The notes beneath the pieces are model-generated. The model searched no databases, was not told the DNA's origin, and saw only the letters and a program-made list of their open reading frames with translations. The translations under genes were made by a program, and so were the position numbers. From Mobula hypostoma (Eukaryota): a stretch of DNA of 64,000 nt. Positions 9,774 to 60,009 of this stretch are shown here, in pieces; the stretch's first letter is position 1, and each line of letters starts with the position of its first letter. The stretch lies in contig NC_086107.1 of the NCBI RefSeq assembly GCF_963921235.1, positions 106,952,001-107,016,000 on the forward strand. The letters are read 5' to 3'.

Positions 9774-10644
9774 GAGAGTAATGAGTAATCACCTCACCCT
9801 GCTTCCCACCTTCTCAGCTTACAATCACAATCTCTTCAGCAGAGTGAGTTCGAATCTCACAGGCATCTGCTTTATTCCAAAGAGGTTCAGTCCCACACCA
9901 GGTTTCTCACTGGCACAGGAAGTAGGCTCCCACATAGGTGAGATCCAATCACACAAGATAGCAAAGAGTACCAGAATTGAAGCTAAACTTCCTGGGCTCT
10001 TCCCACTCCCTCCCTCTCTCTGCCATCTGCATTTCATACCTACCCACTACACCCAGCGAGATCAGATGGGGAGGTTTTGCTTTCCTAATAGCTATGTTTT
10101 CCTATTTATTGTGCCTCAGTAAAATACGGCATGCTAGGGACTTTGGTGGTGTTGGATTAGTAGATTTTCTGTAATATTGGATTGTATCCCTATTGATAAC
10201 CGAACACATATTTAATTCACTCTTTTAAGATGTGGCACAAACTTCCTAGTGAACTCGGTGTGTATGAAGGAAGCACAGGAAATAGGACCCTGGTAAGTTT
10301 ACCAATAGCGCGAGAAATGCCCCAGGCGATGAGGTTAATGGGGGTACAAGAATAAAGGCTGGAAGAGTTTGAAGGGAGCATACGTATTGAGCCCACCCCC
10401 AGCCAGACGGAAGTGAACTGGATCCCTAGTGAGGGGAAGGGAGAGCAGGAAATCTTATCTAGTGAGTCAGGTGCCAAACCTTTGGATAGTGAACTATCAG
10501 AGTATGGAATGGACTACTTGGTACAATTCTATTTTGTTTTATTTGGAGTATGTGATAGGTCATTCTGGCCCTTTGAGCTGAACCTCTGATTTCATCCTAG
10601 CCTAATCACAGGACAACCTACAATAACCAATTAACCTATTAGCC

Positions 10645-11210
10645 AGAGCAACACACGCAGAATGCTGGAGGAACTCGGCATCTATGGAAATGAGTAAACA
10701 GTCGACCTTTTGGGCCGAGACCCTTCATCAGGACTGGGATGGCTGGGGGAAGATGCCACAATGAAAAAGTGGGGTGGGGAAGGAGGGTAGCCAGAAGGTG
10801 ATAGGTGAGGCCAGGTGGGTGGGAAAGGTCAAGGGCTGGAGGGAAAGGAATCTGATAGGAGAGGAGGGAGAACAATAGGAGAAAGGGAAAGAGGAGGGGA
10901 GTCAGGCAGGTGAGAAGAGGTAAGAGGACAGAGTGGGGAATAGAAGAAGAAAGGAGGGCGAGGGAATTTTTTTTAACCAGAAAGAGAAATCGATATTCAT
11001 TCCATCAGGTTGGAGGCTACTAGGATGGAATAAAAGGTGTTGCTCCTCCACCCTAGGGGTGGCCTCATTGTGGCAGAAGAGGAGGCTATGGACTGACATG
11101 ACAGACATGCCATCAGGTTGGAGGCTACCCAGACAGAATATAATGTGTTTCTCCTCCACCTTGAGTGGGCCACATCGTGGCAGAAGAGGAAGTCATGGAC
11201 TGACATGGTG
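10645..11210 (-). mobile_element. Penelope-like element 3' end (GIY-YIG C-terminus remnant, pyrimidine-rich tail, degenerate hammerhead)
   Basis: Encodes EATPRVEEQHLLFHPSSLQPDGMNIDFS and EEKHIIFCLGSLQPDGM, similar to the PLE endonuclease end LEEQHLIFRLGxLQPxGMN. Degenerate hammerhead CTGATGAagggtctcggcccAAAAggtc at ~10700-10735. Confidence 0.7.
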
Positions 11211-12053
11211 GTACGTCTTTGGAGTGTGGGAGGAAACCAGAGGACCTGGAGAATACCTACGCATTCCACGTGGAGGGCAAACCGACTCCTTACAGATGAC
11301 ACTGGAATTGAACTCCGAGCTCTAATGCCCTGAGCTGTGATAATGTCACGCTAACTGCTACACTACCGTGGCACCCAAAGTTCTAAAGGATGAACAGGAA
11401 CCTGGTTTTACCATGGAGAAGCAGGAGATGGCAGATACTGGAAAAGTTCAAAACTTACCCAAAACATTAAGTGTCTATTTATGATGTCTGACCCAATGTG
11501 TTTCTCCTGCAGTTTGTGTTTTGAACTTAGTTGTACGGACGCACAGGCTCTGTAAAGTGGCAGGGCACGTGGAGATAATTGTTCATAATGTGGGTTTTAT
11601 TCCTACAGAGTACAATGCATTGGTTAGGCCACAACTGTATCCATTTCTGGCCGCCGCTCTTTAGGAAGGATGTGAAGATCCTTCAGAGGACGCAGAAAGG
11701 GCTTGCTGGAATATTTCTGAGGATGACGGGTTTTCGTTCTCAGGTCAGACAGGAGGGACTGATGTTGTTCTACCTGTGGCAGAGAAGGTTGAGAGGAGAT
11801 GCAGAAAGAGTGGACCAAGATCAACATGGGTGTAGACAGGGAGAACAGAGGGAAACTTTTCCCAGCAGCAGATGGTTTAGAGACCTCAGGACACAGATTT
11901 AAAATTTGGGGACAGAGAGAGGATTTAGGGGTCAGGTTTAGAGCTTTAGGAACAGGGATCTGGAGGAATTCGAGGATGGGCTGGAGTCTTAAGTCTTGAG
12001 TTACCGTCCCGCGCTTGAAGCACAGTGATACAGACGTGGGACATCTGCAGACC

Positions 12054-12755
12054 ACAATAGACAATAGACAATAGGTGCAGGAGTAGGCCATTCGGCCCTT
12101 CGAGCCAGCACCGCTTTTCACTGTGATCATGGCTGATCACCCACAATCAGTACCCCGTTCCTGCCTTCCCCCCATATCCCTTGACTCCACTATCTTTAAG
12201 AGCTCTATCTAACTCTTTCTTGAAAGAATCCAGAGAATTGGCCTCCACTGCCCTCTGAGGCAGAGCATTCCACAGATCCACAACTCTCTGGGTGAAAAAG
12301 TTTTTCCTCAACTCCGTTCTAAATGGCCTACCCCTTAATCTCAAATTGTGGCCTCTGGTTCTAGACTCCCCCAACATCGGGAACATGTTTTCTGCCTCTA
12401 GCGTGTCCAATCCTTTAATAATCTTATATGTTTCAATTAAATCCCCTGTCATCCTTCTAAATTCCAGTGTATACAACCCCAGTTGCTCCAATCTTTCGAC
12501 ATATGACAGTCCCGCCATCCCAGGAATTAACCTCGTGAACCTACGCTGCACTCCCTCAACAGCAAGAATGTCCTTCCTCAAATTTGGAGACCAAAACTGT
12601 ACACAATATTCCAGGTGGGGTCTCACCAGGGCCCTGTACAACTGCAGAAGGACCTCTTTGCTCCTATACTCAACTCCCCTTGTTATGAAGGCCAGCATGC
12701 CATTAGCTTTCTTCACTGCCTGCTGTACCTGCATGCTTACTTTCAGTGACCGATG
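12054..12755 (-). mobile_element. CR1-clade LINE 3' end, well preserved
   Basis: Open frame QQAVKKANGMLAFITRGVEYRSKEVLLQLYRALVRPHLEYCVQFWSP...GYGGKAGTGY, with a (CAATAGA)n tail. Confidence 0.92.
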
Positions 12756-14885: not shown

Positions 14886-15049
14886 CACAAAAAACTGACA
14901 GACCACCCATACAGGAAAGCAGCAATAAGAACATCAGACCCCCAATGGCCAACTCCTCCCTCACACAGAAACTAACACGGCACCCACCCGCCAATCAGCA
15001 ACAAGGAATAAAACTCCAAAAACTGAAGTAGACCAATATAAAGTACGAA

Positions 15050-15225
15050 TAACCTCTTCTCGGGCTTCCAGCCGGGTACAGATATTGATTATAACTGACG
15101 TTTCGATGACCAACTCTGCCACCTTCAAGAGGGATGTTGATCCCCATAGAAGACGGCAGAGCTAGTCATTAAAACATCAATTATAATCGATACCGGTACC
15201 CGGCTGGAAGCTCCAAAAGAGTTGA
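15050..15225. mobile_element. Palindromic element of a second hammerhead-bearing (PLE-like) family
   Basis: Imperfect inverted arms (ctcttctcgggcttccagccgggtac / gtacccggctggaagctccaaaagag) around gaNggcagagNtNgtcat-type stem II remnants. Confidence 0.5.
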
Positions 15226-15744
15226 TTCATCTTATACACTGGGAAAGCACGGGATCCTTTTTCAATATAAAGTACATTCCGGTCAAGATGGTGCCAGTGA
15301 ACAATGATTATCGGGCGACATCTTTCAGACAGCTAATCTCTTCAATTAGTTCACATTCTTTATGTCTTCTGCTTGTTCTTTTTGTCTTGATCGTGTTTTG
15401 GAAACTGTTGGATTCTGTGGCATGCAGATCAGATTTCGATCGAATGATCTAGCGCTCTGCTATCCTCCAGAGGACCGTGAGCATGAGCTGTCTCGTGGAG
15501 AAGACCAGAGACATGTTGGGTCATGTACGACCCCATTTTGAGGCATTGAGCAAGACTGAAGCATCAGGGCAAGTGCAGAGAAGGATCGGTGGTGACTCTC
15601 CGGGGAGGCCACGGGGTCAGTAGCTGGGTCGGCAGCGTTTGGACCAGGCTGGCAGCTGCTTTTACGGAAGGACTGAGTTCGTGCGGCCGCTCTCCTCGAT
15701 GCTGCTGGGTGGACTTTTTCAAAATTCTGAGATTTATGTGATTT

Positions 15745-28590: not shown

Positions 28591-29384
28591 CTGTACTGGC
28601 TTGGGATGGATGAATCAGGCCAAACGCCTTTCTCAATGCTCGATGACTAGATCCAGTTCATCCCATCCTTTCAACCTCTTCAGTAGCCTTCCTAATTATT
28701 GATAAGTTGTGTTCCATCCCCCTAGAATCATGCAGGGATACGGAACAGAAACCGGACCTGAGGCTCACTGGGGGCCATTCACCCACCAACCCTGCACCCC
28801 TTGGAGGTGAGGGAGGGATCCAGGGAAGATCCGTGGAGCTCCACACAGACAGCACCAGAGGTCAGGTTGAACCTGTGCCTCTGGAGTTCTGAGGTGGCAT
28901 CTCTACCAGTTGTGCCAGTGTGCCACCACAGCGTTACGGAATGCTGCAGGAGCCTAGGGTTAAATTGGGAAGGGTGGATTCTCTCAACCTGTAGAGACAC
29001 GGGAGGCCGCAGTGGCTGGAGTCTGGTGCGGGAGGAACTCAGCAGGCCGAGCAGCATCCATGGAGTGGGGAGGAACTGTCAGTGTTTTCGGGCCCTGATG
29101 CAGGGCTCGAGTCCGAAACGTTGATCTTCCTTGTCCGCTACAGATGCTGCTTGCTCTGCTGAATTCCCCTGGCAGATTGTTTGTTGCCCTCAAATTGTGC
29201 TTCTTTTCACGTAGAAGATTAGGATGGCCCGTTTAAGCGTGCAAAAGGTGGGGAGACACTGCTGAGTAGGTGGGGGGGGTGGAGTCTAGAACAAGAAGCT
29301 TTAAATATGAGCCAGCCCTCTGCAAAATTACCTTCTCAAACAAGATCTTCCCCAAGAAAGGATCTAGTGCTTTCCCAGCGTTTA

Positions 29385-29635
29385 TGACGAATAAACTCTT
29401 CTGGGGCTTCCAGCCAGGTATATTTCAACATTTCAATGACAAACTCTGCCACCTTCTTCAGGAAGGAGAGATTACAACCAACATTTCATTGACAGCCTCT
29501 GGGCCATCTTCTTCATGAAGAAGAAATTATAACCAACGTTTCGATGACATCTTCTTGAGGAAAATGGCAGAGTTTGTCATCGAAACGTCGGTTATAATCG
29601 ATAGCTGTAACCGACTGGAAGCCCGAGAAGGGTTT
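29385..29635. mobile_element. Palindromic element of the second hammerhead-bearing family
   Basis: Minus strand 29464-29424 reads ttcCTGAAGAaggtggcagagtttgtcattGAAAtgttgaa. Plus strand ~29555-29590 reads TTGAGGAaaatggcagagtttgtcatcGAAAcgtcgg. Confidence 0.55.
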
Positions 29636-32600
29636 AAAACCTTCCCCATTAAAATGTCAATCTTCCCCACTGGTACAAGACTAATTAACAGAATCAAAAC
29701 TGAAATTGTTGTCAGGCTGGAGGTTAAGCACTTTGAAACCAAGGTCAAGAAGTGGAGCTCAGATACAATCAACTCTGAAAAGTAGAACAAGCTGGATGGG
29801 CCAAATGGCCTCCTTCAGCTCCTTGTCCTCATTTGGTCATTGCCTCTGAAGTAAAGCAGTGCTACGATCTGACTGCAGTGCGCCAGGACTAGCTTTGTAC
29901 CTGCTTTTCAAGTCATTTCACAGTTTTCCCTGTTTCCACGTGACCTGCGGAATAAAGCACCATTTTTCAAAACCTTGGCAACTTTTCCCAGTCAAGTAGC
30001 TGTGAGCTTCACTCCTCTTGATGCCTCCGAAAGGGGTCCAGTCCCAAGCCAGACACAGGACCCTGGTGCTCGTTGCACATTACCCAGGGGGAGTTGATGG
30101 GGCCGCTATCATTGTGATAATGGTTTACATCCATGACCACGTCTCAGGTAAATATAAAGAAGTCCTTCGAGCAGAGCAGGAAATGTTCTTCCAATATTCT
30201 GGGGCCATTTAATAAACCAGATCATTTGGTAGTTTTGTACAGGGAGACACTGTACAGGATCGAAATAAGCTACAGAAAGTTGTAAGCTCAGCCAGCTCCA
30301 TCATGGGCACTAGCATCTTCATGTAGCGATGCCTCAAAAAGGCAGCGTCCATCATTAAGGACCCCCATCACCCAGGACATGCCCTCTTCTCATTGCTACC
30401 ATCAGAAAGGAGGTACAGGAGTCTGCAGGCACATACTCAACAACTCAATGGCTTCCTGCCCTCTGCCATCTGATTTCTGAACGGACATCGAACCCATGAA
30501 CATTACCTCACTGACAAAATGCTGGAGGAACTCAGCAGGCAAGACAGCATCTATGGAAAAAAGTACAGTCGACGTTCCAGGCCAAAACCCTTCAGCAGGA
30601 CATCTGCAGATTTTCTCTTGTTTGTAACATTACCTCATTACTTTTTTTTATTTCTGTATTTGCCCTGCTTATTTAATTTAACTTTAAAAAATATATATAC
30701 TTCTCACTGTAATTTACAGTTTTTAATTATTATGTATTGCAATGTACTGGTGCAGCATAACAACAAATTTCATGGCATATGCCGATGATATTAAACCTGA
30801 TTCTGACTCTGTTCACACTGCACTTTGGGGAGATTGATGCAATGCAAGTTGGCTGTTGTGCTTCCTACTTTACAACATGAGTGCTTGGGTTTCCTCCGGG
30901 TGCTCTGGTTTCCTCCCACAGTCCAAAGACGTAACGGCTAGTAGGGCAATTGGTCGTAAATTGTCCTGTGATTAGGTTATGAGGCTCGTTGGGCCGGGAG
31001 GGCCTGTTCTGTGGTGGATCTCTAAATAAATAAATCAATTCTGTAAATAAAATAAACAGTTCAAACCCATTTTCTTAAAGGGTTCCTGGGATATCTTCAG
31101 GTCCAAGTGAAAGGTGCTTCAGAAAGGCAAATTTCCATTCCTTCAAGTTCAGTCAGGTGGTGGGAGTATGTCGCTCCTGGCCGGCTTCTCACACGGGCAC
31201 CGTTCTTCCAGTTCCAGTCTACGTGCACGTCTCCCAGCTTCTCGCCCCTTTTCGCTGGGTAATCTCGTTCTTTTCCCTCTTCCTCGTTGCCACGGCCCTA
31301 CCCCGCTCCCTCTCCTGCCCTTCACCCAAGCGGTGAGGTGCGTCCTCAACCGGAGCCTGGGGTCGCACCTAGCTGAGGAAGGAGCAGCGGCAGTTCGTCA
31401 CTCTTCCTTCTCCCTCGACCTCTTCAGAGTCGGGATTACACTCCAAAGCTCACCGCAGTCAACAGCTCCAGTACCTCAGGCAGCTGACAGTCGGGAGGTC
31501 GAGGCTGACACTTGACTTTCCTGTGCGTGTGCTACAGACATGGACACGCACAGACTCTCAATCAACGCCACCCCTCATCTCCACCCTCCACAGAGTCTTT
31601 CATACAATGAATCTCTCTCTCACACCCAGTCTCACCTGTGCGTTCAACCTTGCTCCGCTCTCTCTCACACACACACACGAAATCTCTCCCGTTCCCACAC
31701 AAAGGTACACACTCACAGTCAACTCTGAGTCTCGCTACATACACACGTGCACTCACACACGCTGGGATCTCTCCCACGCACGCAGGCACAAAGATACACA
31801 ATCAGCACTATGTTTTACCCCCCACACACACTCTAATCTCTCCCATGCATATACAGCGGTACTCACCAGAACCTCTGCCTTTCTGTTCAAACACACACGT
31901 ACAGAACATTGTGCGCCGATGCTCTGCAACGCTCGTGTGGAAGTACGTGGGCGTAAAATGCAGAGCGCTGCCACGAGTCACACTGTGTCATAGTTTAAGG
32001 CAGAACACAGCCCAAGGCACTTGACGCAGGTGTAGGGAAATCGAGGAAGCGGAGTAGATACTGAGCAGAGAGTGAGGAGGAGGGAAGGATCTGAGGTCAC
32101 ATTGGTCAGTGTAGAGCAAACTGAGAGGGAGGGCGAGCAGGAGAGGAGGAAGAGAAGGTAATGTTGTGGGACAGATAAAAGAGTTGACAGAAAGGAATTA
32201 GAGCTAGGTAGACACGGATACACCTAAAATGTGACTTTTGCTGGCAATTCATTTCCCATCTTGACTTGCCCTGGTAAGGTCCTCAACATCTATGCAGTAG
32301 TTTGATAAACCGGTAGGCGGTTTGCCAATTACATCAGACATGTGTGCATCAGAGAAGCACAAGTGGTCACTCAGGGACAGATATCTGCCGTACTTACTCA
32401 CTCTGAATCTGAACTGGATTTAATTCCCATTTCTCAATGGGATCAGGCCTTATCTTGCTCTCAAGAGAGACACTGAGCCCAGTGAAAAATAGTAACAATG
32501 CCAGCGTCCTGTGAATGACTGAGATAAAAAGGACCAATGGGCTCACAGGGTACAGGAGGTAAGATGACTAGGAGATAACGCAAATCCATCCTGAGGTATG

Positions 32601-34299: not shown

Positions 34300-34832
34300 T
34301 TATACAGGTGTTGTTCTTCGGTTGACCGTGTTGGTATGCAAGGAATCCTTAATGTCTTTCTGGATGCAGTTATGGACCTGTAGGAAATTGTGGTCTCGCT
34401 CGGAGTTGTAAGTGGCAGTTGAGGTGGTGGTCTTCAGAGGGTCTCTCGTGAGGGTGTACATGGATATTTCTGTGGACGGCAGCGTGTTAAAGCCTTTGAG
34501 ACCGACGGGAGAGGGGTCTCTGGAGTGGGAGGGCTCTGTGGAGCGGGAGCTCGATCGACTGCGCCGTCTGTAGCGGTATCGGTAACTGGGGATCCGAGTG
34601 ATGGCAGAGGACTGGAGGTAATCCGTGGATCTTGTCCCTGCCCTGATCTGTTTGTGTCTGTCAATGAACATGTGAACCGCTAACACGCCCACCATCTCCG
34701 CGATGATGAAGGAGAGCGCTCCAAAGTAAAAAGACCACCCATAGGAGTAACTGTTCTTTTTTGAGTCGCTCTTTGCAGGATCTCCCGCGTTGGCTGATAT
34801 GTACACGATGATGCCGATGATGTTACTCAAAC
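34300..34832 (-). CDS. CACNG2: Terminal coding exon of voltage-dependent calcium channel gamma-2 / stargazin (TARP gamma-2); partial gene
   Basis: Translation is [62 protein letters not shown]...[27 protein letters not shown]...STEISMYTL...[10 protein letters not shown]...RRTTPV*. This covers TM3/TM4, the RS phospho-tail and the class I PDZ ligand TTPV. A pyrimidine tract and CAG acceptor lie at 34835-34833 (phase 1), with a TAA stop at 34302-34300. The first ~65 aa of the listed ORF (34833-35028) are intronic. Confidence 0.96.
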
Positions 34833-34987
34833 CTGCGGAAGAACATGGGGGATGGGGGGGTGGGGTTGGAAGAACAAAAGGACACCAGTTATTGATATTT
34901 GAGTGAAGGAAATGCAGTTTTCTGGGTTGGGGGGAGGGAAGGAAGAGAAGGTGGAGAGTGGAATTGTTGGGAAAGTCGCACCAATTG

Positions 34988-41395: not shown

Positions 41396-41977
41396 TATGT
41401 ATGTATATAGATACATACATGCAGACACATATATACTGTATGTATGTATGTATGTTGTGAAATTTGTTGTTTGGCGGTAGCAGTACAATGCAATACATAA
41501 TAATGAAATTGTGAATTACAATTTTCAATTGTGTAACTCACAGTTTTTATTATTATATATTGCATTGTACTGCTGCCGCCAAACAACAAATTTCACGACA
41601 TATGCCGGTGATATTAAACCAGATTCTGATTCAGACATATAGTGAAGTGCGTTGTTTGCATCAGTTTAAATTAGTGAAGATTGCGTAGTCTGCAAGTGTG
41701 GCTATGCTTCTGGCAGCGGTATAACGTGCCCACAACTCATTGCCCTCTGGAATGTGGGAGGAAACCGGGGCACCCGGAGGAAACCCACACAGTTACCGAG
41801 CGAACATGCGATCTCCTTACAGGCAGCGGCGGGAATTGAACCCGATCTTACAACTGGCGGCATAAAGCATTGCGCTAACCATGCTTCCTCACCGCGGCCC
41901 CCCCCCCCGCCACACACACATAGTTATTCTCAGGAACCCCTGGAAGTCTGCTGGTATACACAAGATGTACCGGTGTG

Positions 41978-45271: not shown

Positions 45272-47221
45272 GTATATTCTGACTCGCTTAGAGCGACCCA
45301 AGTGTCCACTGAGGTTGGGTAGGGACTACAACTAGAGGGCATGGGTTAAGGGTAAAAGGTGAAAAGCTTACGGGGAACCAGAGGGGAAAATTCTTCACTC
45401 AGAGGGTTGTGAGAGTGTGGAATGAGCTGCCAGCACAAGTGGTGCTTGTGAGCTCAGTCTCAATGCTTAAGAGAAGTTAGGATAGGTTCATGGATGGGAG
45501 GGTATTGTGGGCTATGGTCCTTGTGCAGGTCAATGGGAGTAGGCAGTTTAGTCGGTTCAGTATGGACTAGATGGGCCGAAGGGCCTGTTTCTGTGCTTTA
45601 CTTTTCTATGACTCTGTGGCCCCTGTATGCATTTCTACAAACCCAGGTTACCTGTAAGGAAGCACTCCGGCGGCTCTACTTTGCCAGAAGTTTGAAGAGT
45701 TTTGATGTGATATCAAAGTCTTATAAACTTACAAAGTTGAGAGCTTGCATCGCAGCCTGGTACGAAGGATCCGATACACAGGATCGCAAGGGACAGCAGA
45801 CTGCTATAGACTCAGTCACCTTCATCACAGGCACAACCCTCCCAGCCATGGAGGGCACCTCCAGGAGGCGGTGCCTCAAAGCCGTGGCGTCCATCACCAA
45901 GAACTATCCAGGACATGCCCTCTAGTTGCTACGGTCATCAGGCAGGAAGTACAGGAGCCTGAAGACCCACGCGCAATGATAAAGGAACAGATTCTTCCCC
46001 TCAGCCCTCAGGTGTCTGAATGGTCCATGAGTCCGTACAGTCCGTACACTGCTCTTCTTGTTTTTGCAAATATTTATTTTTACAATTTATTGCCCACCCA
46101 GCCAACAGACTTTTCATCCCTCTTCCCTCTGAGAGAAGGTTCAGGAGCTTGAAGTCTCATACGGCCAGATTTGGGAACAGCTTCTTTCCAACTGTGATAA
46201 GACTGCTGAACGGATCCTGACCCGGATCTGGGCCATACCTTCCAAATATCCGGACCTGCCTCTCGGATTTTTTGCACTACCTTACTTCCCATTTTTCTAT
46301 TTTCTATTCATGATTTATAATTTAAATTTTTAATATTTACTAATTTAAACTATTTTAAATATTTATAATATTTAATATTTGTAATCCAGGGAGTGTGAAG
46401 CGCAGAATCAAATATCGCTGTGATGATTGTACGTTCTAGTAACAACTGTATGGTGACAATAAAGTATAAAGTATTAATTTTATGTGTTTGCTCTGTATTG
46501 CTACAGCAAAACCACAAATTCCATGTCATCTAACTCAGTGATAATAAATCAGATTCTGTAAGTACCTACAAACGCCCTGGGAGTCCATGTAAGTGCTGAT
46601 TCAGCCCAAAGGAATCTAAGAACATTGACCCCGGAATAGTTTTCTCAGAATCAGAATCAAGTTTAATATCACTGGCATATGTCATGAATTGTGTTGTTTT
46701 GCGGCAGCAGTACAGTGCAATACATAATAATAGAGAAAAACACACAAATTACAGTAAGTATATATTAAATTTAAGTAAGTAGTGTAAAATAAAAAGTGGT
46801 GAGTTCATGGGTTCAATGTCCATTCGGAAATCGGACAGCAGAGGGGAAGAAGCTCCTGAATTTCAGGCTTCTGGACCTCCTCTCTGATGGCAGGAATGAG
46901 ACGCCTCTTTGAGGCATCGTTCCTTGAAGATGTTCTGGATACTACGGAGGCTAGTGGCCATGATGAAGCTGACTGAGTTTACAACTTTCTGCAGCTTACT
47001 TCGATCCCGTGCAGTAGATTCCCCACCCCCCACCACCCATGCCAGACGGTGATGCAGCCATGGTACATCTGTAGGAAGCCGTGAGTGTCTTTAGTGACGT
47101 ACCAAATCTCCCAGTAGCCAAACAATGTAGACTAACAGTGACAAACGCTTGTGGGTACCATAAGCTCTGATGCAATCTCGTGAATCCCCTATAAATACCA
47201 AATCACCCCCAGTGTCTCTTT

Positions 47222-47727
47222 AGACAATAGATAATAGGTGCAGGACTAGGCCATTCAGCCCTTTGAGCTAGCACCACCATTCACTGTGATCATGGCAGAT
47301 CATCCACAATTAGTACCCTGTTCCTGCCTTATCCCCATATCCCTTCACTCCGCCATCTTTAAGAGCTCTATCTAACTCTTTCTTGAAAGAATCCAGAGAA
47401 TTGGCCTCCACTGCCTTCTGAGGCAGAGCATTCCACAGAACCACAACCTTCTGGGTGAAAAAGATTTTCCTCAACTCTGTTCTAAATTGTCTACCCCTTA
47501 TTCTTAAACTGTGGCCTCTGGTTCTGGACTCCCCCAACATCGGGAACATGTTTCCTGCCTCTAGCGTGTTCAATCCCTTAATAATCTTATATGTTTCAAT
47601 CAGATCCTCTCTCACCTTCTAAATTCCAGTGTATACAGGCCCAGTCGCTCCAGTCTTTCAACATATGACAGTCCCGCCATCCCAGGAATTAACCTCGTGA
47701 ACCTACACTGCACCCCCTCAATAGCTA
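47222..47727 (-). mobile_element. CR1-clade LINE 3' end, same subfamily as 12054-12755
   Basis: Encodes DLIETYKIIKGLNTLEAGNMFPMLGESRTRGHSLRIRGR, nearly identical to the 12 kb copy. Confidence 0.9.
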
Positions 47728-47744
47728 GACACCGTCCCTCCTAC

Positions 47745-55064: not shown

Positions 55065-57025
55065 GCAAAATAGTTCAACCATGGCTGACAGGAGAAGTTA
55101 AAAAGAATGCAGAAGCTAAAGAAAGGGCATACAACAAAGGAAAAAGTTAGTGGAAAGATAGAGGATTGGAAAGCTTTTAAAAATCTACATAGAGCAACTA
55201 AAAGAATCCTTTGGAGGGAAAAGATGAAATATGAAAGCAAGCTAGCAAACAATATAGAGGAGGACAGAAAAAACTTTTTCAAGTATATAAAAAATAAGTG
55301 GATATAGGACTGCTAGAAAACGACGGCAGAGAAATCGTAGCAGGGGACAAGCAGATAGCAGACGAACTAAATAAGTATTTTGCATCAGTCGTCACTGTGG
55401 AAGACACTAGCAGTGTGCTTGGTGTTGAAGGGTGTGAGGGAAGGGAAATGAGTGCAGTTACAAGGGAGAAGGTGCTCAAAAAGCTGAAAGACCTAAAAGT
55501 TCATAAGCCTCCTGGATCAGATGACCTGCAATCTAGGGTTCTGAAAGAGGTAGCAGTAGAGACTGGGGAGACATTAGGAATAATCTCTCAAGAATCACTG
55601 GACTCTGACATGGTTCCGGAGGACTGGAAAATTGCAAATATCACTCCACTCTTCAAGGAAGGAGGGAGGCAGCAGAAAGGAAATTATAGAGCAGTTAGCC
55701 TGACCTCAGTGGTTGGAAAGATGTTGGAGTCAACTGTTGAGGATGAGGTTATGGAGTACTTGGTGACACAGGACAAGATAGGACAAAGTCAGCATGGTTT
55801 CCTTAAGATTACAAATAGGATGGATAAAGGGGATGCAGTGGATGTTGTATATTTGGATTTTGACAAGGTGCCACACATGAGGCTGCTTACTAAGTTAAGA
55901 GCCCTGGTATTACAGGAAAGTTCTTACAAGGTTAGAGCATTGGCTGATTGGTAGGAGGCAGCGAGTGGGAATAAAAGGATCATTTTCTGGTTGGTTGCCA
56001 GTGACTAATGGTGTTCTGCAGGGGTCGGTGTTGGGACCTCTTCTTTTTATGCAGTATATCAATGATTTAGATGATGATTTAATGGCTTTGTTGCCAAGTT
56101 TGCAGATGATTCGAAGCTTGCTGGAGGGGCAGGTCATGTTGAGGAAACAGGAAGGCTCCCGAAGGACTTAGACAGATTAGGAAGATGGGCAAGAAAGCGG
56201 CAGGTGAAATATAATGTTGGAAAATGCATGGTCATGCACTTTTGTAGAAGAAATAAATGTGCAGACTACTTTCTAAATGGGGATAAAATCAAAAAATCGG
56301 AGAGGGCAAGGGACTTGGGAGTCCTTGTGCAGAACAACCTAAAGGTTAACTTGCAGGTTGAGTCGGTGGTGAGGAAGGCAAATGAAATGTTAGCATTCAT
56401 TTCAAGAGGTTGAGAATACAAGAGCAAGGATGTGATGCTGAGGCTTTATAAGGCACTGGTGAGGCCTTCATCTTGAGTATTGTGAACAGTTTTGGGCTCC
56501 TTAACTAAGAAAAGATGTGCTGGCATTGGAGAGGGTCCAGAGGAGGTTCACAAGGATATTTTTTGGGAATGAAAGGGTTATCATATGAGGAAGTTTTGAT
56601 GGCTTTGGGCCTGTACTCGCTGGAATTTAGAAGGATGAAGGGGGACCTCATTGAAACCTTTCGAATGTTGAATTACCTAGACACAGTAGATGTGGAACAT
56701 ATGTTTCCCTTGGTGGAGGAGTCTAGGACAAGAGGGCACAGCCTTAGGATAGAGGGGCGTCCATTTAAAACAGAGATGTGGAAAAATTTCTATAACCAGA
56801 GGGTGATAAATTTGTGGAACTTGTTACCACAGGCAGCTGTGGAGGCCAGGTCGTTGGGTGTATTTAAGGCAGAGATTGATAGGTTCTTGATTGGCCACGA
56901 CATCAAAGCTTACAGGGAGAAGGTTGGGGAGTGGGGCTGAGGAGGGGGAAAAAAAAGGAAGAGCTGTGATTGAACGGTGGAGCAGATTCGATGGGCCAAA
57001 TGGCCTAATTCTGCTCCTGTGACTT
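55065..57025 (+). mobile_element. ~2-kb CR1-clade LINE ORF2 (RT) pseudogene through the 3' end
   Basis: Encodes PEDWKIANITPLFKEG..GNYRAVSLTSVVGKMLES..QHGF..VDVVYLDF..VPH, GVLQGSVLGPLLF..YINDLD, FADD (frameshifted), RDLGVLV and TRGHSLRIEG. Multiple frameshifts. Confidence 0.92.
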
Positions 57026-58217
57026 AAAGTCTTCTTCTGGGTCTTCAGACCAGCTATGTGGCGGGGCTCTTTGCTATCACCAGAAACAGCCTGGAAGACA
57101 AGCACCTTCAGGGAGAACGACCTGGATCCTCGCTGATTTCGCCAACTGAGGTGCTGTGGGAAACTGGAACATCAAGACAGAAAGCGGTGTGACTGTTGCC
57201 GGAAGTAGGCCTCTGCACTTCAGCGATTCCAACACCCCCCCCCCCCCACCTTTATGGTGAGGGAGAGCTCGCCAGTCCTCAAGTCGAGGGGCTTGGAGAA
57301 GCAACACGGAATGCTATAACATCGGAACAGCGAGCTGGTGGTCTCCTGCTCTCGTTATTGCGGGAGCGATATCTCTCCTCCCTCGCTGGAGAGAGGCAGA
57401 GCCTGTCTGAGATACCGATGGGCTGGGTTATGTACTGTAGCTTTTGATGGACCCGAATCAAGGACTCTCTGGGGGGCTTTCGCTATTGCTTGCATGGGGA
57501 AGGGGGTTGGGAGGATGGTCAGTGCTCCTGCTGGCGCAAGAGGAGAGAGGGGGACGGGGAGGGTCAATGATTCTGCTTTGGCTGTGCAATGGGAGGGGGA
57601 GGGATGTTTTGGGGTTCTGATGTTTCTATCGTTCATTCTATGGGGGGGGTTCTTGTTTCATGAATATCTGTGAAGAGTAAGAATTTCAGGTTGTACACGC
57701 TATACATTCTCGGATGTTAAATTGAATTGACTTTATTACTTACATCCTTCATACACATGAGGAGTAAAAATCTTTACGTTACGTCTCCATCTAAATGTGC
57801 CATGTGTAATTTATAATAAATAGTACGTACACCAATATAACATAGAAATACAGCATGAATTAATCAGTCTGATGGCCTGGTGGAAGAAGCTGGCCCGGAG
57901 CCTGTTGGTCCTGGCTTTTATGCTACAGTACCGTTTCCCGGATAGTAGCAACTGGAACAGTTTGTGGTTGGGGTGACTCAGGTCCCCAATGATCCTTCAG
58001 GCCCTTTTTACACACCGGTCTGTGTAAGTGTCCTGAATAGTGGGAAGTTCATATCTACAATGTGCTGGGCTGTCCGCACCACTCTCTGCAGAGTCCATTT
58101 GAACCACCTGAGTCATCATAAGTGGTTGAGCTCATGGGAGTTTCTGTGCTCTAATTGGTTGCGTCAATAGAATGCTTTAGATGTGACTTGGGAACAAGGT
58201 GTTCCAGGGATGTGTAA

Positions 58218-58458
58218 AAAGACACAAACACGAGGAATTCTGCAGATGCTGGAAGTTCAAGCAACACACATCGAAGTTGCTGGTGAACACAGCAGGCCAG
58301 GCAGCATCTCTAGGAAGAGGTACAGTCGACGTTTCGGGCCGAGACCCTTCTTTCAGTTAGTCCTGACGAAGGGTCTCGGCCCGAAACGTCGACTGTACCT
58401 CTTCCTAGAGATGCTGCCTGGCCTGCTGTGTTCACCAGCAACTTCGATGTGTGTTGTT
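58218..58458. mobile_element. Young Penelope-like (PLE) terminal fragment in inverted configuration
   Basis: Perfect 89-bp inverted repeat (58262-58350 / 58368-58456), flanked by the direct repeat ATGTGTAA (58210-58217, 58459-58466). Carries the hammerhead motif. Confidence 0.75.
58359..58394 (+). ncRNA. Minimal type I hammerhead ribozyme motif (Penelope-type)
   Basis: Sequence is AGTC-CTGACGA-a-GGG tctcgg CCC-GAAA-C-GTC-GACT. Stem I is AGTC/GACT, the CUGANGA and GAAA boxes are intact, stem II is GGG/CCC, stem III is the loopless palindrome ACGT, and the GUC cleavage triplet ends at 58390. Confidence 0.75.
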
Positions 58459-58494
58459 ATGTGTAACGAGACCCTCTTTTTCAAAAGGTTACCT

Positions 58495-58863
58495 CTAGTT
58501 TGGGTGTTGGGGTGGAGATACGTCTCTACCAAAGGAGGTGTGAGGTTCTCCTTCCCCCTGCTAGCCTACAGGTCACCCTGGGGCAAGGAGCGGCACCTGC
58601 TTAGTCCCTCGATCAGGGTCACATGAAGCCACGGAAGCAGGTGGTGGATGGTCATGTGGTGATGTGACCACTGATACCAGGCAGACAATCTCTGAAGAGT
58701 ATTGATATTGACTGTGGTCACCCATCTTGTAACGACACTGCCCAGAAGGAGGCAATGGCAAACCACTTGTGCAGAAAAATTTGCCTAGAACAATCATGGT
58801 CATGAGACCATGGTCGCCCACGTCATAGGACATGGCACATGATGCTGATGATGATGATGATGA
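58495..58863 (+). mobile_element. Short non-autonomous retroelement with (GAT)n tail, probably RTE-mobilised
   Basis: Homologous minus-strand copies at ~44610-44955 and ~62600-62950. The tail type matches the RTE copy at 22161. Confidence 0.55.
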
Positions 58864-60009
58864 CCTTCATTTGTCATTTGTACATCAAAATGTCAAAACT
58901 TGCTGAGTTCAGAGTTCAATCCCAGCATCCTCTGCAAAGAGTCCTCTGTACATCCTCCCCGTGGAATGTGTAGGTTTCCTACGGGTGCTCTGGTTTCCTC
59001 CCACAGTCCAAAGACGTACTGGGTAGGTTAATTGGTAATTGTAAATTGTCCCGTGACTGGGTTAGGGTTAATCAGGGTTGTTGGGGGTTGCTGGGTGGTA
59101 CAGCTTGAAGGGCCTTTCTGTGCTCTCTAAATAAATAAATAGACAAACTGGAAATACAAAAAGCAAACAAACAAATGTAACAATAAAAATAAAATAAAAT
59201 AAACAATTCTGAGTACATGAGTCATTGAGAATGAGTCCATGGGTTGTGTTCTGTGATCAGTTCAGGGGTGGGGGGAGCGAAGTTATCCAGGCTGGTCGTT
59301 GCGATTTATCTCGGGGCAGTCGGTGGGACTGCGTGAAGGACAAGATGGGTTAGGGTAGGATGAGTGGTTGAGGGGTGCCATGGACTCGATGGGCTGAAGG
59401 GTCTGTTTCTGTGCTGTTCTGTCTCTGTGGCCCAATGGCTCCTTCCCAGACAGACAGGAATAGAGAAGAAATGTCCTAGCTGTTAACATTTAAAATGTTT
59501 TTATTTATTATTATTGACATACAGCGTGGAACAAGTCCTTCCGGTCCTTTGAGCTGTGCTGTCCAGCAAATCCCAACTTAATCCTAGTCTAATCACGTGA
59601 CAATTTACAATGACTGATTAACCTACCAGTCCATCTTTGGACTGTGGGAGGAAACCAGAGCACCCGGAGGAAACCCTCGCGGTCACAAGGGGAATGTACA
59701 TTCTTCTCCTAGGCAGTGGCAGGAATTGAAGCCGGGTCGCCTGTACTATAACGCACTGTGCTAATTGCCATGCTACTGTACTGCCCCCGGTACATCTGAT
59801 AAATCGACATCAAAGAGAAATTTTGTTCAAAATCTCACGTCCAATATTAGTCAAGCATCACCCACCCAAGCTATAAAACTCCAGTAGCTCCCGGTAAAAT
59901 AACACCGCTGCTTTAAAACTCTCTTTCTCCTTTTAACTTCCAGGTTAAGTCAGAGGTGAGTTAAGCTGTTCTTTAAAACCACTGTGGCTGAACGTACATT
60001 CTAAGGTTG

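What the first reader, a model, noticed from the sequence alone, without database searches (positions are those of the whole stretch)
58210..58466. Intact minimal hammerhead ribozyme inside a perfect 89-bp inverted repeat with an 8-bp target duplication
Seen directly: arms 58262-58350 and 58368-58456 are exact reverse complements around a 17-nt spacer, and the insert is flanked by ATGTGTAA repeats. 58359-58394 has every catalytic-core base of a type I hammerhead, with a loopless palindromic stem III. Established: Penelope-like elements carry such minimal hammerheads, which are thought to cleave as dimers, and often insert with inverted termini. Inferred: this is a recent insertion from a possibly active ribozyme-bearing retroelement. 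The intact ribozyme is antisense to CACNG2, and the sense-strand copy is disrupted (CTGAAAGA, no stem I). The pre-mRNA would instead form an 89-bp perfect hairpin, a candidate Dicer/ADAR substrate and DNA cruciform.
Basis: partly seen in the sequence, partly recalled or inferred. Interest (0 to 1): 0.7.

Follow-up and report, generated by a model that had tools for sequence, protein, structure and literature searches.

The report
Young head-to-head Penelope retrotransposon fragment
This is a real but ordinary, fairly recent insertion of two back-to-back end fragments of a very common Penelope-like retrotransposon in a ray genome; its small ribozyme is a standard part of such elements and is probably locked inside the hairpin here.

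Summary
The 241-bp insert (58218-58458) is two 5'-truncated pLTR copies of a Neptune-type Penelope-like element (PLE) joined head to head at a 4-nt microhomology, with a 44-nt tail at one end only. An older window copy joins the same pLTR to a GIY-YIG C-terminus, 73% identical to a Mobula RT/GIY-YIG protein. Read-derived contigs reproduce the right junction, and one contig of a related species is best read as the empty site (inferred by arithmetic). This architecture and ribozyme are already described for PLEs; the window holds 11-12 other copies and two more such tailed, TSD-flanked insertions. In RNA spanning both arms the hammerhead is buried (about 55 kcal/mol), and both copies run through the cut site, so the templates were uncut. 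Cleavage, expression, editing and polymorphism remain untested. The anatomy favours two cDNAs primed from opposite target strands over simple self-priming. Verdict: new member of a known kind, low interest.

The parts
58210..58217 (.). Left copy of 8-bp target-site duplication
   Evidence: one related-species contig is best read as holding a single copy (inferred)
58218..58261 (-). PLE 'tail' (44 nt): 3' extension at this end only; outer (distal) reverse-transcription start
   Evidence: 3 of 12 aligned rows run into the tail, 9 of 12 stop at or just before the pLTR end; tail described in PMC3846280, PMC8557442, PMC11167929
58262..58350 (-). Left arm: pLTR 3' part, 5'-truncated inside the hammerhead core (lacks C3-N7 and the 5' strand of stem I)
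58347..58350 (.). 4-nt microhomology (CTTC) at the head-to-head junction, shared by both copies
   Evidence: table 7: in all 4 runs family contigs continue before 58347 with other, pyrimidine-rich native sequence
58351..58367 (+). Spacer = native element sequence of the + copy; with 58347-50 and 58368-71 it forms a small natural hairpin; its TTTCAG may be the PLE intron's 3' splice site (inference)
   Evidence: cDNA 3'-end hairpin -2.9 kcal/mol; intron end at helix I reported for D. virilis in PMC4209133
58359..58394 (+). Minimal type I hammerhead, loopless palindromic stem III, predicted cut after 58390
   Evidence: matches the min-HHR description in PMC4209133
58368..58456 (+). Right arm: pLTR 3' part ending at the inner (proximal) reverse-transcription start, no tail
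   Evidence: junction reproduced by a 101-nt read-derived contig, 58429-58529, 0 differences
58457..58458 (.). Two junction bases (TT) that differ from the left copy's continuation (CT)
58459..58466 (.). Right copy of 8-bp target-site duplication
10640..11225 (-). Older, longer copy of the same family: GIY-YIG C-terminal coding remnant (partly duplicated), pyrimidine-rich region, decayed hammerhead; ties the pLTR to a PLE protein
34303..34836 (-). Coding part of the last exon of CACNG2 (from residue 146); upstream exons not found in the window

Best explanation
A non-coding, fairly young insertion made by a Neptune-type endonuclease-containing Penelope-like element. Shown: two pLTR 3' ends face outwards; one ends at the pLTR end and the other 44 nt further, at the tail end; they join at a 4-nt microhomology and are flanked by an 8-bp duplication. 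Inferred mechanism: the RT/GIY-YIG protein made a staggered cut 8 bp apart and primed a cDNA on each target strand, one at each of the two internal start sites that define the tail, on uncleaved RNA from one source copy. Both cDNAs stopped early (about 110 and at most 133 nt). They were joined by CTTC/GAAG annealing, or the right-hand cDNA folded back on its small natural hairpin and the extension annealed to the tail-bearing cDNA. The hammerhead is a passenger: complete in sequence, but sequestered in the 89-bp hairpin in RNA of either strand. Probability about 0.92 for the identity, about 0.6 for the two-cDNA route.
For: Family link: the focal motif aligns to the 10640-11225 copy (81% over 58 nt). 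That copy's upstream frame matches residues 326-366 of P0001 (30 of 41 identical). P0001 has YIDD, a CX4CxxC linker and GIY-YIG, and 72 longer relatives were found, most with RVT_1. Two recurrent 3' ends. All 15 listed of 684 joints in four runs are head-to-head joins of family pieces at varied points; 3 of 15 have a tail-only left piece. The copy at 30511-30625 has a 12-bp TSD and two non-overlapping pieces, so no palindrome. A second family at 15047-15262 has inverted arms, a 34-nt tail at one end and a 13-bp TSD. Both arms share a base that 96-99% of family depth lacks (58273), as expected from one source. Literature: inverted pLTR, one-sided tail and 8-10-bp TSD are typical (PMC3846280, PMC8557442); PAc cleaves and extends both strands, starts at two sites, is predicted to be a dimer and uses unprocessed RNA (PMC11167929).
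Against: No full-length parent of this subfamily was obtained (no genome held; four pattern scans empty), so the link to the protein runs through a diverged older copy. The GIY-YIG Pfam score of P0001 (20.9) is just under the cut-off (22.6). The empty-site joint was not among the 15 joints printed; it is inferred from one contig. No listed contig spans the central junction or the left junction. Arm identity could partly reflect gene conversion or hairpin repair, which would hide age. The two-cDNA route is not shown in any paper I read; PMC3846280 proposes self-priming for such palindromes.
Confidence: 0.9

Rival explanations
1. Same element, but the palindrome arose purely by self-priming or fold-back of a single template (on antisense RNA, as proposed for rotifer Penelope, or on one cDNA), followed by insertion.
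For: The junction sits exactly on a natural hairpin (CTTC..GAAG with an inner 4-bp helix); the arms are identical, including a rare variant; 2 of 15 listed joints are mirror-symmetric; PMC3846280 argues for self-priming.
Against: The spacer's orientation shows it was copied with the right-hand piece, which has no tail, so its fold-back alone cannot supply the 44-nt tail at the left end unless the right end was trimmed exactly to the usual inner start site. The 30511-30625 copy and 3 of 15 listed joints have non-overlapping pieces that fold-back cannot make.
Confidence: 0.3
2. The insertion has acquired a function at CACNG2: an intronic dsRNA that is edited or diced, or an antisense self-cleaving RNA.
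For: The minus-strand RNA folds into an 89-bp duplex (-206 kcal/mol, z -29.5), and the insert probably lies in an intron of a neuronal gene. By recalled knowledge, intronic inverted repeats are ADAR substrates.
Against: Any perfect inverted repeat folds so. The insert appears absent from a related species, lies over 23 kb from the nearest exon found, and is one of many similar inserts. The ribozyme fold costs about 55 kcal/mol in context. Incidental editing is plausible but would not be a function.
Confidence: 0.04
3. Assembly or library fold-back artefact.
For: Perfect palindromes are a known artefact class (recalled); no listed contig spans the centre or the left junction; the best run may be the window's own source.
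Against: An artefact would mirror flanking DNA and would not give a one-sided tail, native spacer, microhomology or TSD. A read-derived contig reproduces the right junction with 0 differences at depth 15 (28 letters of arm, 31 or more on each side of 58459/60). Older diverged insertions of the same architecture exist in the window.
Confidence: 0.02
4. A MITE-like DNA transposon or an animal non-LTR retrozyme.
For: Short and non-coding, with inverted repeats and a TSD; retrozymes carry type I hammerheads and derive from pLTRs (bioRxiv 10.64898/2026.07.22.740005).
Against: The inverted repeats are not terminal (44-nt overhang); most window copies are single-armed and 5'-truncated; TSD lengths vary (8 and 12 in this family, 13 in the second); no adjacent tandem unit.
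Confidence: 0.03

Closest known systems
Endonuclease-containing PLE insertions with inverted pLTRs (Adineta vaga Pen2a/Pen3a, PMC3846280; general scheme in PMC8557442)
   Same: Head-to-head inverted pLTR, tail at one end only, 8-10-bp TSD, palindrome or microhomology at the inverted junction, solo-pLTR derivatives
   Different: No ORF between the pLTRs; tail 44 nt rather than 30-40; arms still 100% identical; host is a ray
Minimal type I hammerheads (min-HHR) of metazoan PLEs (PMC4209133)
   Same: Full core, 4-5-bp helix I, unpaired base between 9 and 10.1, G10.1-C11.1, palindromic 15.2-16.2 with no loop 3; that paper also reports pairs of motifs 100-700 bp apart on opposite strands
   Different: Helix II is short (4 bp; 7-8 in the Schistosoma families); C at position 7 lets the core mispair with stem III; the motif is buried in a perfect hairpin
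Poseidon element of Anolis (PAc, PMC11167929)
   Same: Two RT start sites bounding the tail, hammerhead just upstream of them, uncut RNA as template, AT-rich target
   Different: The ray family's protein relative has the Zn-linker of the Neptune/Nematis clades; no biochemistry exists for it; that paper does not explain inverted products
L1 twin-priming inversions (recalled, no call)
   Same: Two primers from a staggered cut, inversion joined at microhomology, TSD
   Different: L1 copies non-overlapping parts of one RNA, one primer at poly(A); here both ends are element-defined start sites and the copied parts can overlap, giving a palindrome

Membership tests
Minimal type I hammerhead (min-HHR) | Conserved core CUGANGA / GAAA / NUH | tested here: met
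   0 core mismatches; the only one of 6 relaxed-scan hits with full core, 4-bp stem I and C17
Minimal type I hammerhead (min-HHR) | Helix I 4-5 bp, unpaired base between 9 and 10.1, G10.1-C11.1, palindromic 15.2-16.2 | tested here: met
   against the description in PMC4209133
Minimal type I hammerhead (min-HHR) | Larger than usual helix II (6-8 bp in the families described) | tested here: not met
   4 bp with a 4-nt loop; a trait of the described families, not of the catalytic core
Minimal type I hammerhead (min-HHR) | Self-cleavage as a dimer or with the element protein | not testable with these tools
   needs an assay; the 4-bp self-duplex is only -1.7 kcal/mol
Rfam hammerhead families | Match to a covariance model | tested here: not met
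   no hammerhead hit; expected if the models need a looped stem III (inference)
EN+ Penelope-like elements | pLTR linked to an RT + C-terminal GIY-YIG ORF | tested here: met
   at family level only; the focal insert itself has no ORF
EN+ Penelope-like elements | Hammerhead in the pLTR | tested here: met
EN+ Penelope-like elements | Inverted 5'-truncated copy with a 30-40-bp tail at one end | tested here: met
   tail 44 nt, slightly longer than described
EN+ Penelope-like elements | Short TSD confirmed by an empty site | tested here: met
   one 213-nt contig of run X9; joint inferred from equal depth and length arithmetic, not printed
Neptune clade | CX2-5CxxC linker before GIY-YIG (shared with Nematis) | tested here: met
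   P0001, and 59 of 73 proteins held; definition in PMC8557442
Neptune clade | RT phylogeny with reference Neptune elements | not tested
   no named reference sequences at hand
Animal non-LTR retrozymes | Head-to-tail tandem units | tested here: not met
   no adjacent direct copy
MITE / TIR DNA transposon | Inverted repeats at both termini, fixed TSD length | tested here: not met
pre-miRNA | Rfam gathering score | tested here: not met
   best 52.6 bits against 88

The most novel reading that the evidence does not exclude
Head-to-head PLE insertions are products of symmetric twin target-primed reverse transcription: a dimeric RT/GIY-YIG protein primes one cDNA on each target strand, one at each tail-defining start site, on uncut RNA. 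Rays carry a very large natural library of such junctions, from tail-only to perfect palindromes, that would settle this against the published self-priming model and show where cDNAs stop relative to the ribozyme and the putative splice acceptor.
Probability: 0.55. Interest if true: 0.45.

Novelty: new member of a known kind. Interest (0 to 1): 0.2.

Why it matters
As a locus it matters little: it is one of many PLE fragments in an intron-sized repeat-rich region. Its value is as a clean, young record of PLE integration, a step still unresolved (PMC11167929 leaves the steps after initiation open; PMC3846280 proposes self-priming). It shows both start sites, an uncut ribozyme template, the microhomology and the TSD in 257 bp. 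A census of such junctions in ray genomes would test the mechanism without bench work. No paper on PLE hammerheads of rays turned up in two searches, and none proposing twin priming for PLEs among the titles and abstract openings listed in two more; the library lacks most subscription journals and Repbase was not searchable.

Tried and rejected
No whole genome is held, so no census or parent search was possible. Pattern scans for the family in viral contigs and metagenome contigs found 0 loci. Rfam: no hammerhead hit; pre-miRNA hits are hairpin artefacts. Sequencing runs: no RNA holder listed; this says nothing about expression. In one search the unique left flank 58117-58209 had no cover in X1, X3 or X10, so zygosity, polymorphism and presence in organisms B and D could not be read. 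Summed depths there are not copy numbers. CACNG2 upstream exons: ten short recalled motifs hit only the last exon and one chance site; 29 splice-bounded 141-nt candidates did not resemble the missing exon (exon size recalled); 174 of 174 open frames of at least 45 aa on minus above 34840 gave no claudin-family hit, while the last exon did. tblastn of three PLE proteins found only the 10.9-11.2 kb remnant. Earlier scan findings: none by sequence or words. Lunse et al. on dimer cleavage is not held. TSD searches gave nothing for the copies at 29.0 and 38.5 kb, only 6-mers at 42.5 kb and the 41.5-kb inverted repeat, and a doubtful 8-mer at 0.4 kb.

Full report
Observation. Arms 58262-58350 and 58368-58456 are exact reverse complements around 17 nt, and ATGTGTAA stands at 58210-58217 and 58459-58466. 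It is the longest of 164 inverted pairs within 700 bp in the window. The 8-mer occurs six times on the + strand, so the duplication needed independent support. The + strand holds a type I hammerhead: stem I 58359-62/58391-94, CUGACGA, one unpaired A, a 4-bp stem II, GAAA, a loopless C-G, and U-C with the predicted cut after 58390. These traits match the minimal hammerhead of PLEs in PMC4209133, which lists the extra base between positions 9 and 10.1, G10.1-C11.1 and palindromic 15.2-16.2; helix II is shorter here. Rfam has no matching model: 10 hits at E<=10, none a hammerhead, and 0 hits at gathering score in the window.

The insert is real. Contigs of four public runs were laid on 57900-58800. 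In X1 a 101-nt contig covers 58429-58529 with no difference at depth 15, which reproduces the right junction; it holds 28 letters of the arm, and X1 may be the window's own source. In X9, another organism, a 213-nt contig of depth 7.9 lies on 58068-58209 with 9 differences and has 70 letters left over. A contig of the same depth shows a difference at 58495, 34 letters from its end, which fits a second piece 58459-58528 of exactly 70 letters. That is an empty site with one copy of the 8-mer. The joint row itself was not among the 15 of 684 printed; a reading shifted by three bases fits the lengths too, but not the tool's leftmost placement of joints. No listed contig spans the centre or the left junction. 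The arms differ at 0 of 89 sites (95% bound 3.3%), against 6.3% for the flank versus X9. The insertion is therefore younger than that split, unless conversion has kept the arms alike.

It belongs to an abundant PLE family. The window holds 12 other loci of the same repeat, one of them a weak hit, about one per 5 kb. Between 38,000 and 112,000 contigs per run were laid on the stretch, all its repeats together. The copy at 10640-11225 continues upstream through a pyrimidine-rich region into a frame that matches residues 326-366 of a Mobula hypostoma protein at 30 of 41 positions (1 hit among 38 candidates). That protein has YIDD, a CX4CxxC linker and a GIY-YIG domain (Pfam E 0.0005, score just under the cut-off). 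It has 72 longer relatives, most with RVT_1; 59 of the 73 proteins carry the linker, which PMC8557442 gives for Neptune and Nematis. The host is thus probably a ray and the element Neptune-like; both are inferences, and no RT tree was built. The focal copy is linked to the protein only through this older copy (81% over 58 nt).

Anatomy. In all four runs, family contigs continue before 58347 with a different pyrimidine-rich sequence (table 7). So 58347-58456 is one contiguous sense copy, the spacer is native, and CTTC at 58347-50 is shared with the antisense copy 58218-58350. An alignment of 12 window pieces shows two recurrent 3' ends: 9 stop at or shortly before the end of the right arm and 3 run on into a further tail. 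The focal insert has one of each, both facing outwards. This is the structure that PMC3846280 calls typical: inverted pLTR, tail at one end, TSD of 8-10 bp, head-to-head palindromic junctions. PMC8557442 says the same. Two more examples lie in the window. At 30511-30625 the same family has a 12-bp TSD, with a tail piece joined to a non-overlapping pLTR piece. At 15047-15262 a second family has diverged arms, a 34-nt one-sided tail and a 13-bp TSD. All 15 listed joints in the runs are head-to-head joins; 3 have a tail-only left piece, 2 are mirror-symmetric, and 13 start the sense piece at 58359-58369 (partly a homology limit, since other subfamilies diverge there).

How it was made. PMC11167929 reports that an anole PLE protein cleaves and extends both target strands, starts at two internal sites that bound the tail, is predicted to be a dimer, and inserts mainly unprocessed RNA. 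The simplest reading here (inference) is one cDNA from each nick of an 8-bp staggered cut, each stopping early, joined at CTTC/GAAG. The right-hand cDNA ends in a small hairpin (-2.9 kcal/mol), so it may have folded back and extended before annealing to the tail-bearing cDNA; the final sequence is the same. Fold-back alone, close to the self-priming idea of PMC3846280, cannot supply the tail unless the right end was trimmed, and cannot make the 30.5-kb copy. Both arms carry a base that 96-99% of family depth lacks (58273) and a second minority base (58289), so they come from one source or one was copied from the other. Both copies run through position 58390, so the ribozyme had not cut their templates.

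What it does now. Probably nothing. CACNG2 is on the minus strand; only its last exon (from residue 146) is in the window, and no upstream exon was found. The insert is then probably in a long intron, more than 23 kb from that exon; this assumes the gene is contiguous in the assembly. RNA of the minus strand folds into the 89-bp duplex (-206 kcal/mol), and so does the plus strand. On +, the hammerhead stems have probability about 0 and forcing them costs about 55 kcal/mol; even the isolated motif prefers by 4 kcal/mol a fold in which the core pairs with stem III. PMC4209133 found no monomer activity and low dimer activity for such motifs; PMC11167929 found cleavage only with protein. Incidental ADAR editing of the pre-mRNA hairpin is plausible from recalled knowledge of inverted repeats, but was not testable.

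Papers seen: PMC4209133 and PMC11167929, parts 1-2 of 4 (abstract, results, discussion, start of methods); bioRxiv 10.64898/2026.07.22.740005, abstract and most of Results; PMC3846280, PMC8557442 and PMC6765202, search passages only; Lunse et al., not seen, known through PMC6765202. No supplements were read; those of PMC4209133 or the preprint (closed) may list chondrichthyan motifs. L1 twin priming, CACNG2 exon sizes, splice-signal consensus and editing of inverted repeats are recalled.

Verdict. The motif and the architecture are known, and the functional suggestions have no support. New member of a known kind; interest 0.2. The boldest reading left open is symmetric twin priming as the general route to inverted PLE insertions, testable by a junction census (probability 0.55, interest 0.45).

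Noticed in passing
window 30499-30637: Older head-to-head insertion of the same family with a 12-bp TSD; a 25-nt tail piece is joined to a non-overlapping pLTR piece, so there is no palindrome.
   Followed up: yes
window 15034-15275 and 29389-29636: A second repeat family with a hammerhead-like core (longer stem II). At 15 kb it forms diverged inverted arms with a 34-nt one-sided tail and a 13-bp TSD; at 29.4-29.6 kb a cluster of several pieces. Probably another PLE family.
   Followed up: partly
window 10998-11207 (minus): About 100 bp encoding the GIY-YIG C-terminus are duplicated head to tail (82% identical) at the 5' end of the 10.6-11.2 kb copy, a small partial tandem.
   Followed up: partly
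window 58351-58356 and loose ends: A pyrimidine tract ending in CAG lies just before hammerhead stem I in two subfamilies and looks like a 3' splice site, as reported for D. virilis Penelope; several short window copies (429, 29094, 30601, 38592, 42674) begin within about 12 nt of it.
   Followed up: partly
window 58447-58452 and 58459-58464: The first six bases of the target duplication equal six bases just inside the right end of the element, which may reflect primer-template pairing at target choice; chance not excluded.
   Followed up: no
window 29035-29187: Old head-to-head pair of two diverged pieces of the family, joined near the hammerhead; no TSD found.
   Followed up: partly
window 41451-41602: 58-nt inverted repeat, 93% complementary, 36-nt spacer, from a different repeat family.
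   Followed up: no
window 58973-59071 and 59578-59675: Two oppositely oriented copies of another short repeat (82-94% complementary, about 500-600 bp apart) that could also pair in the pre-mRNA.
   Followed up: no
window 34836-64000: No upstream CACNG2 exon in 29 kb; the last intron is either very long or the gene is broken in this assembly.
   Followed up: partly
window 12058-12567 and 47221-47729; 55298-56410: LINE-like reverse-transcriptase and 3' remnants, including a 510-bp pair at 91% identity.
   Followed up: no
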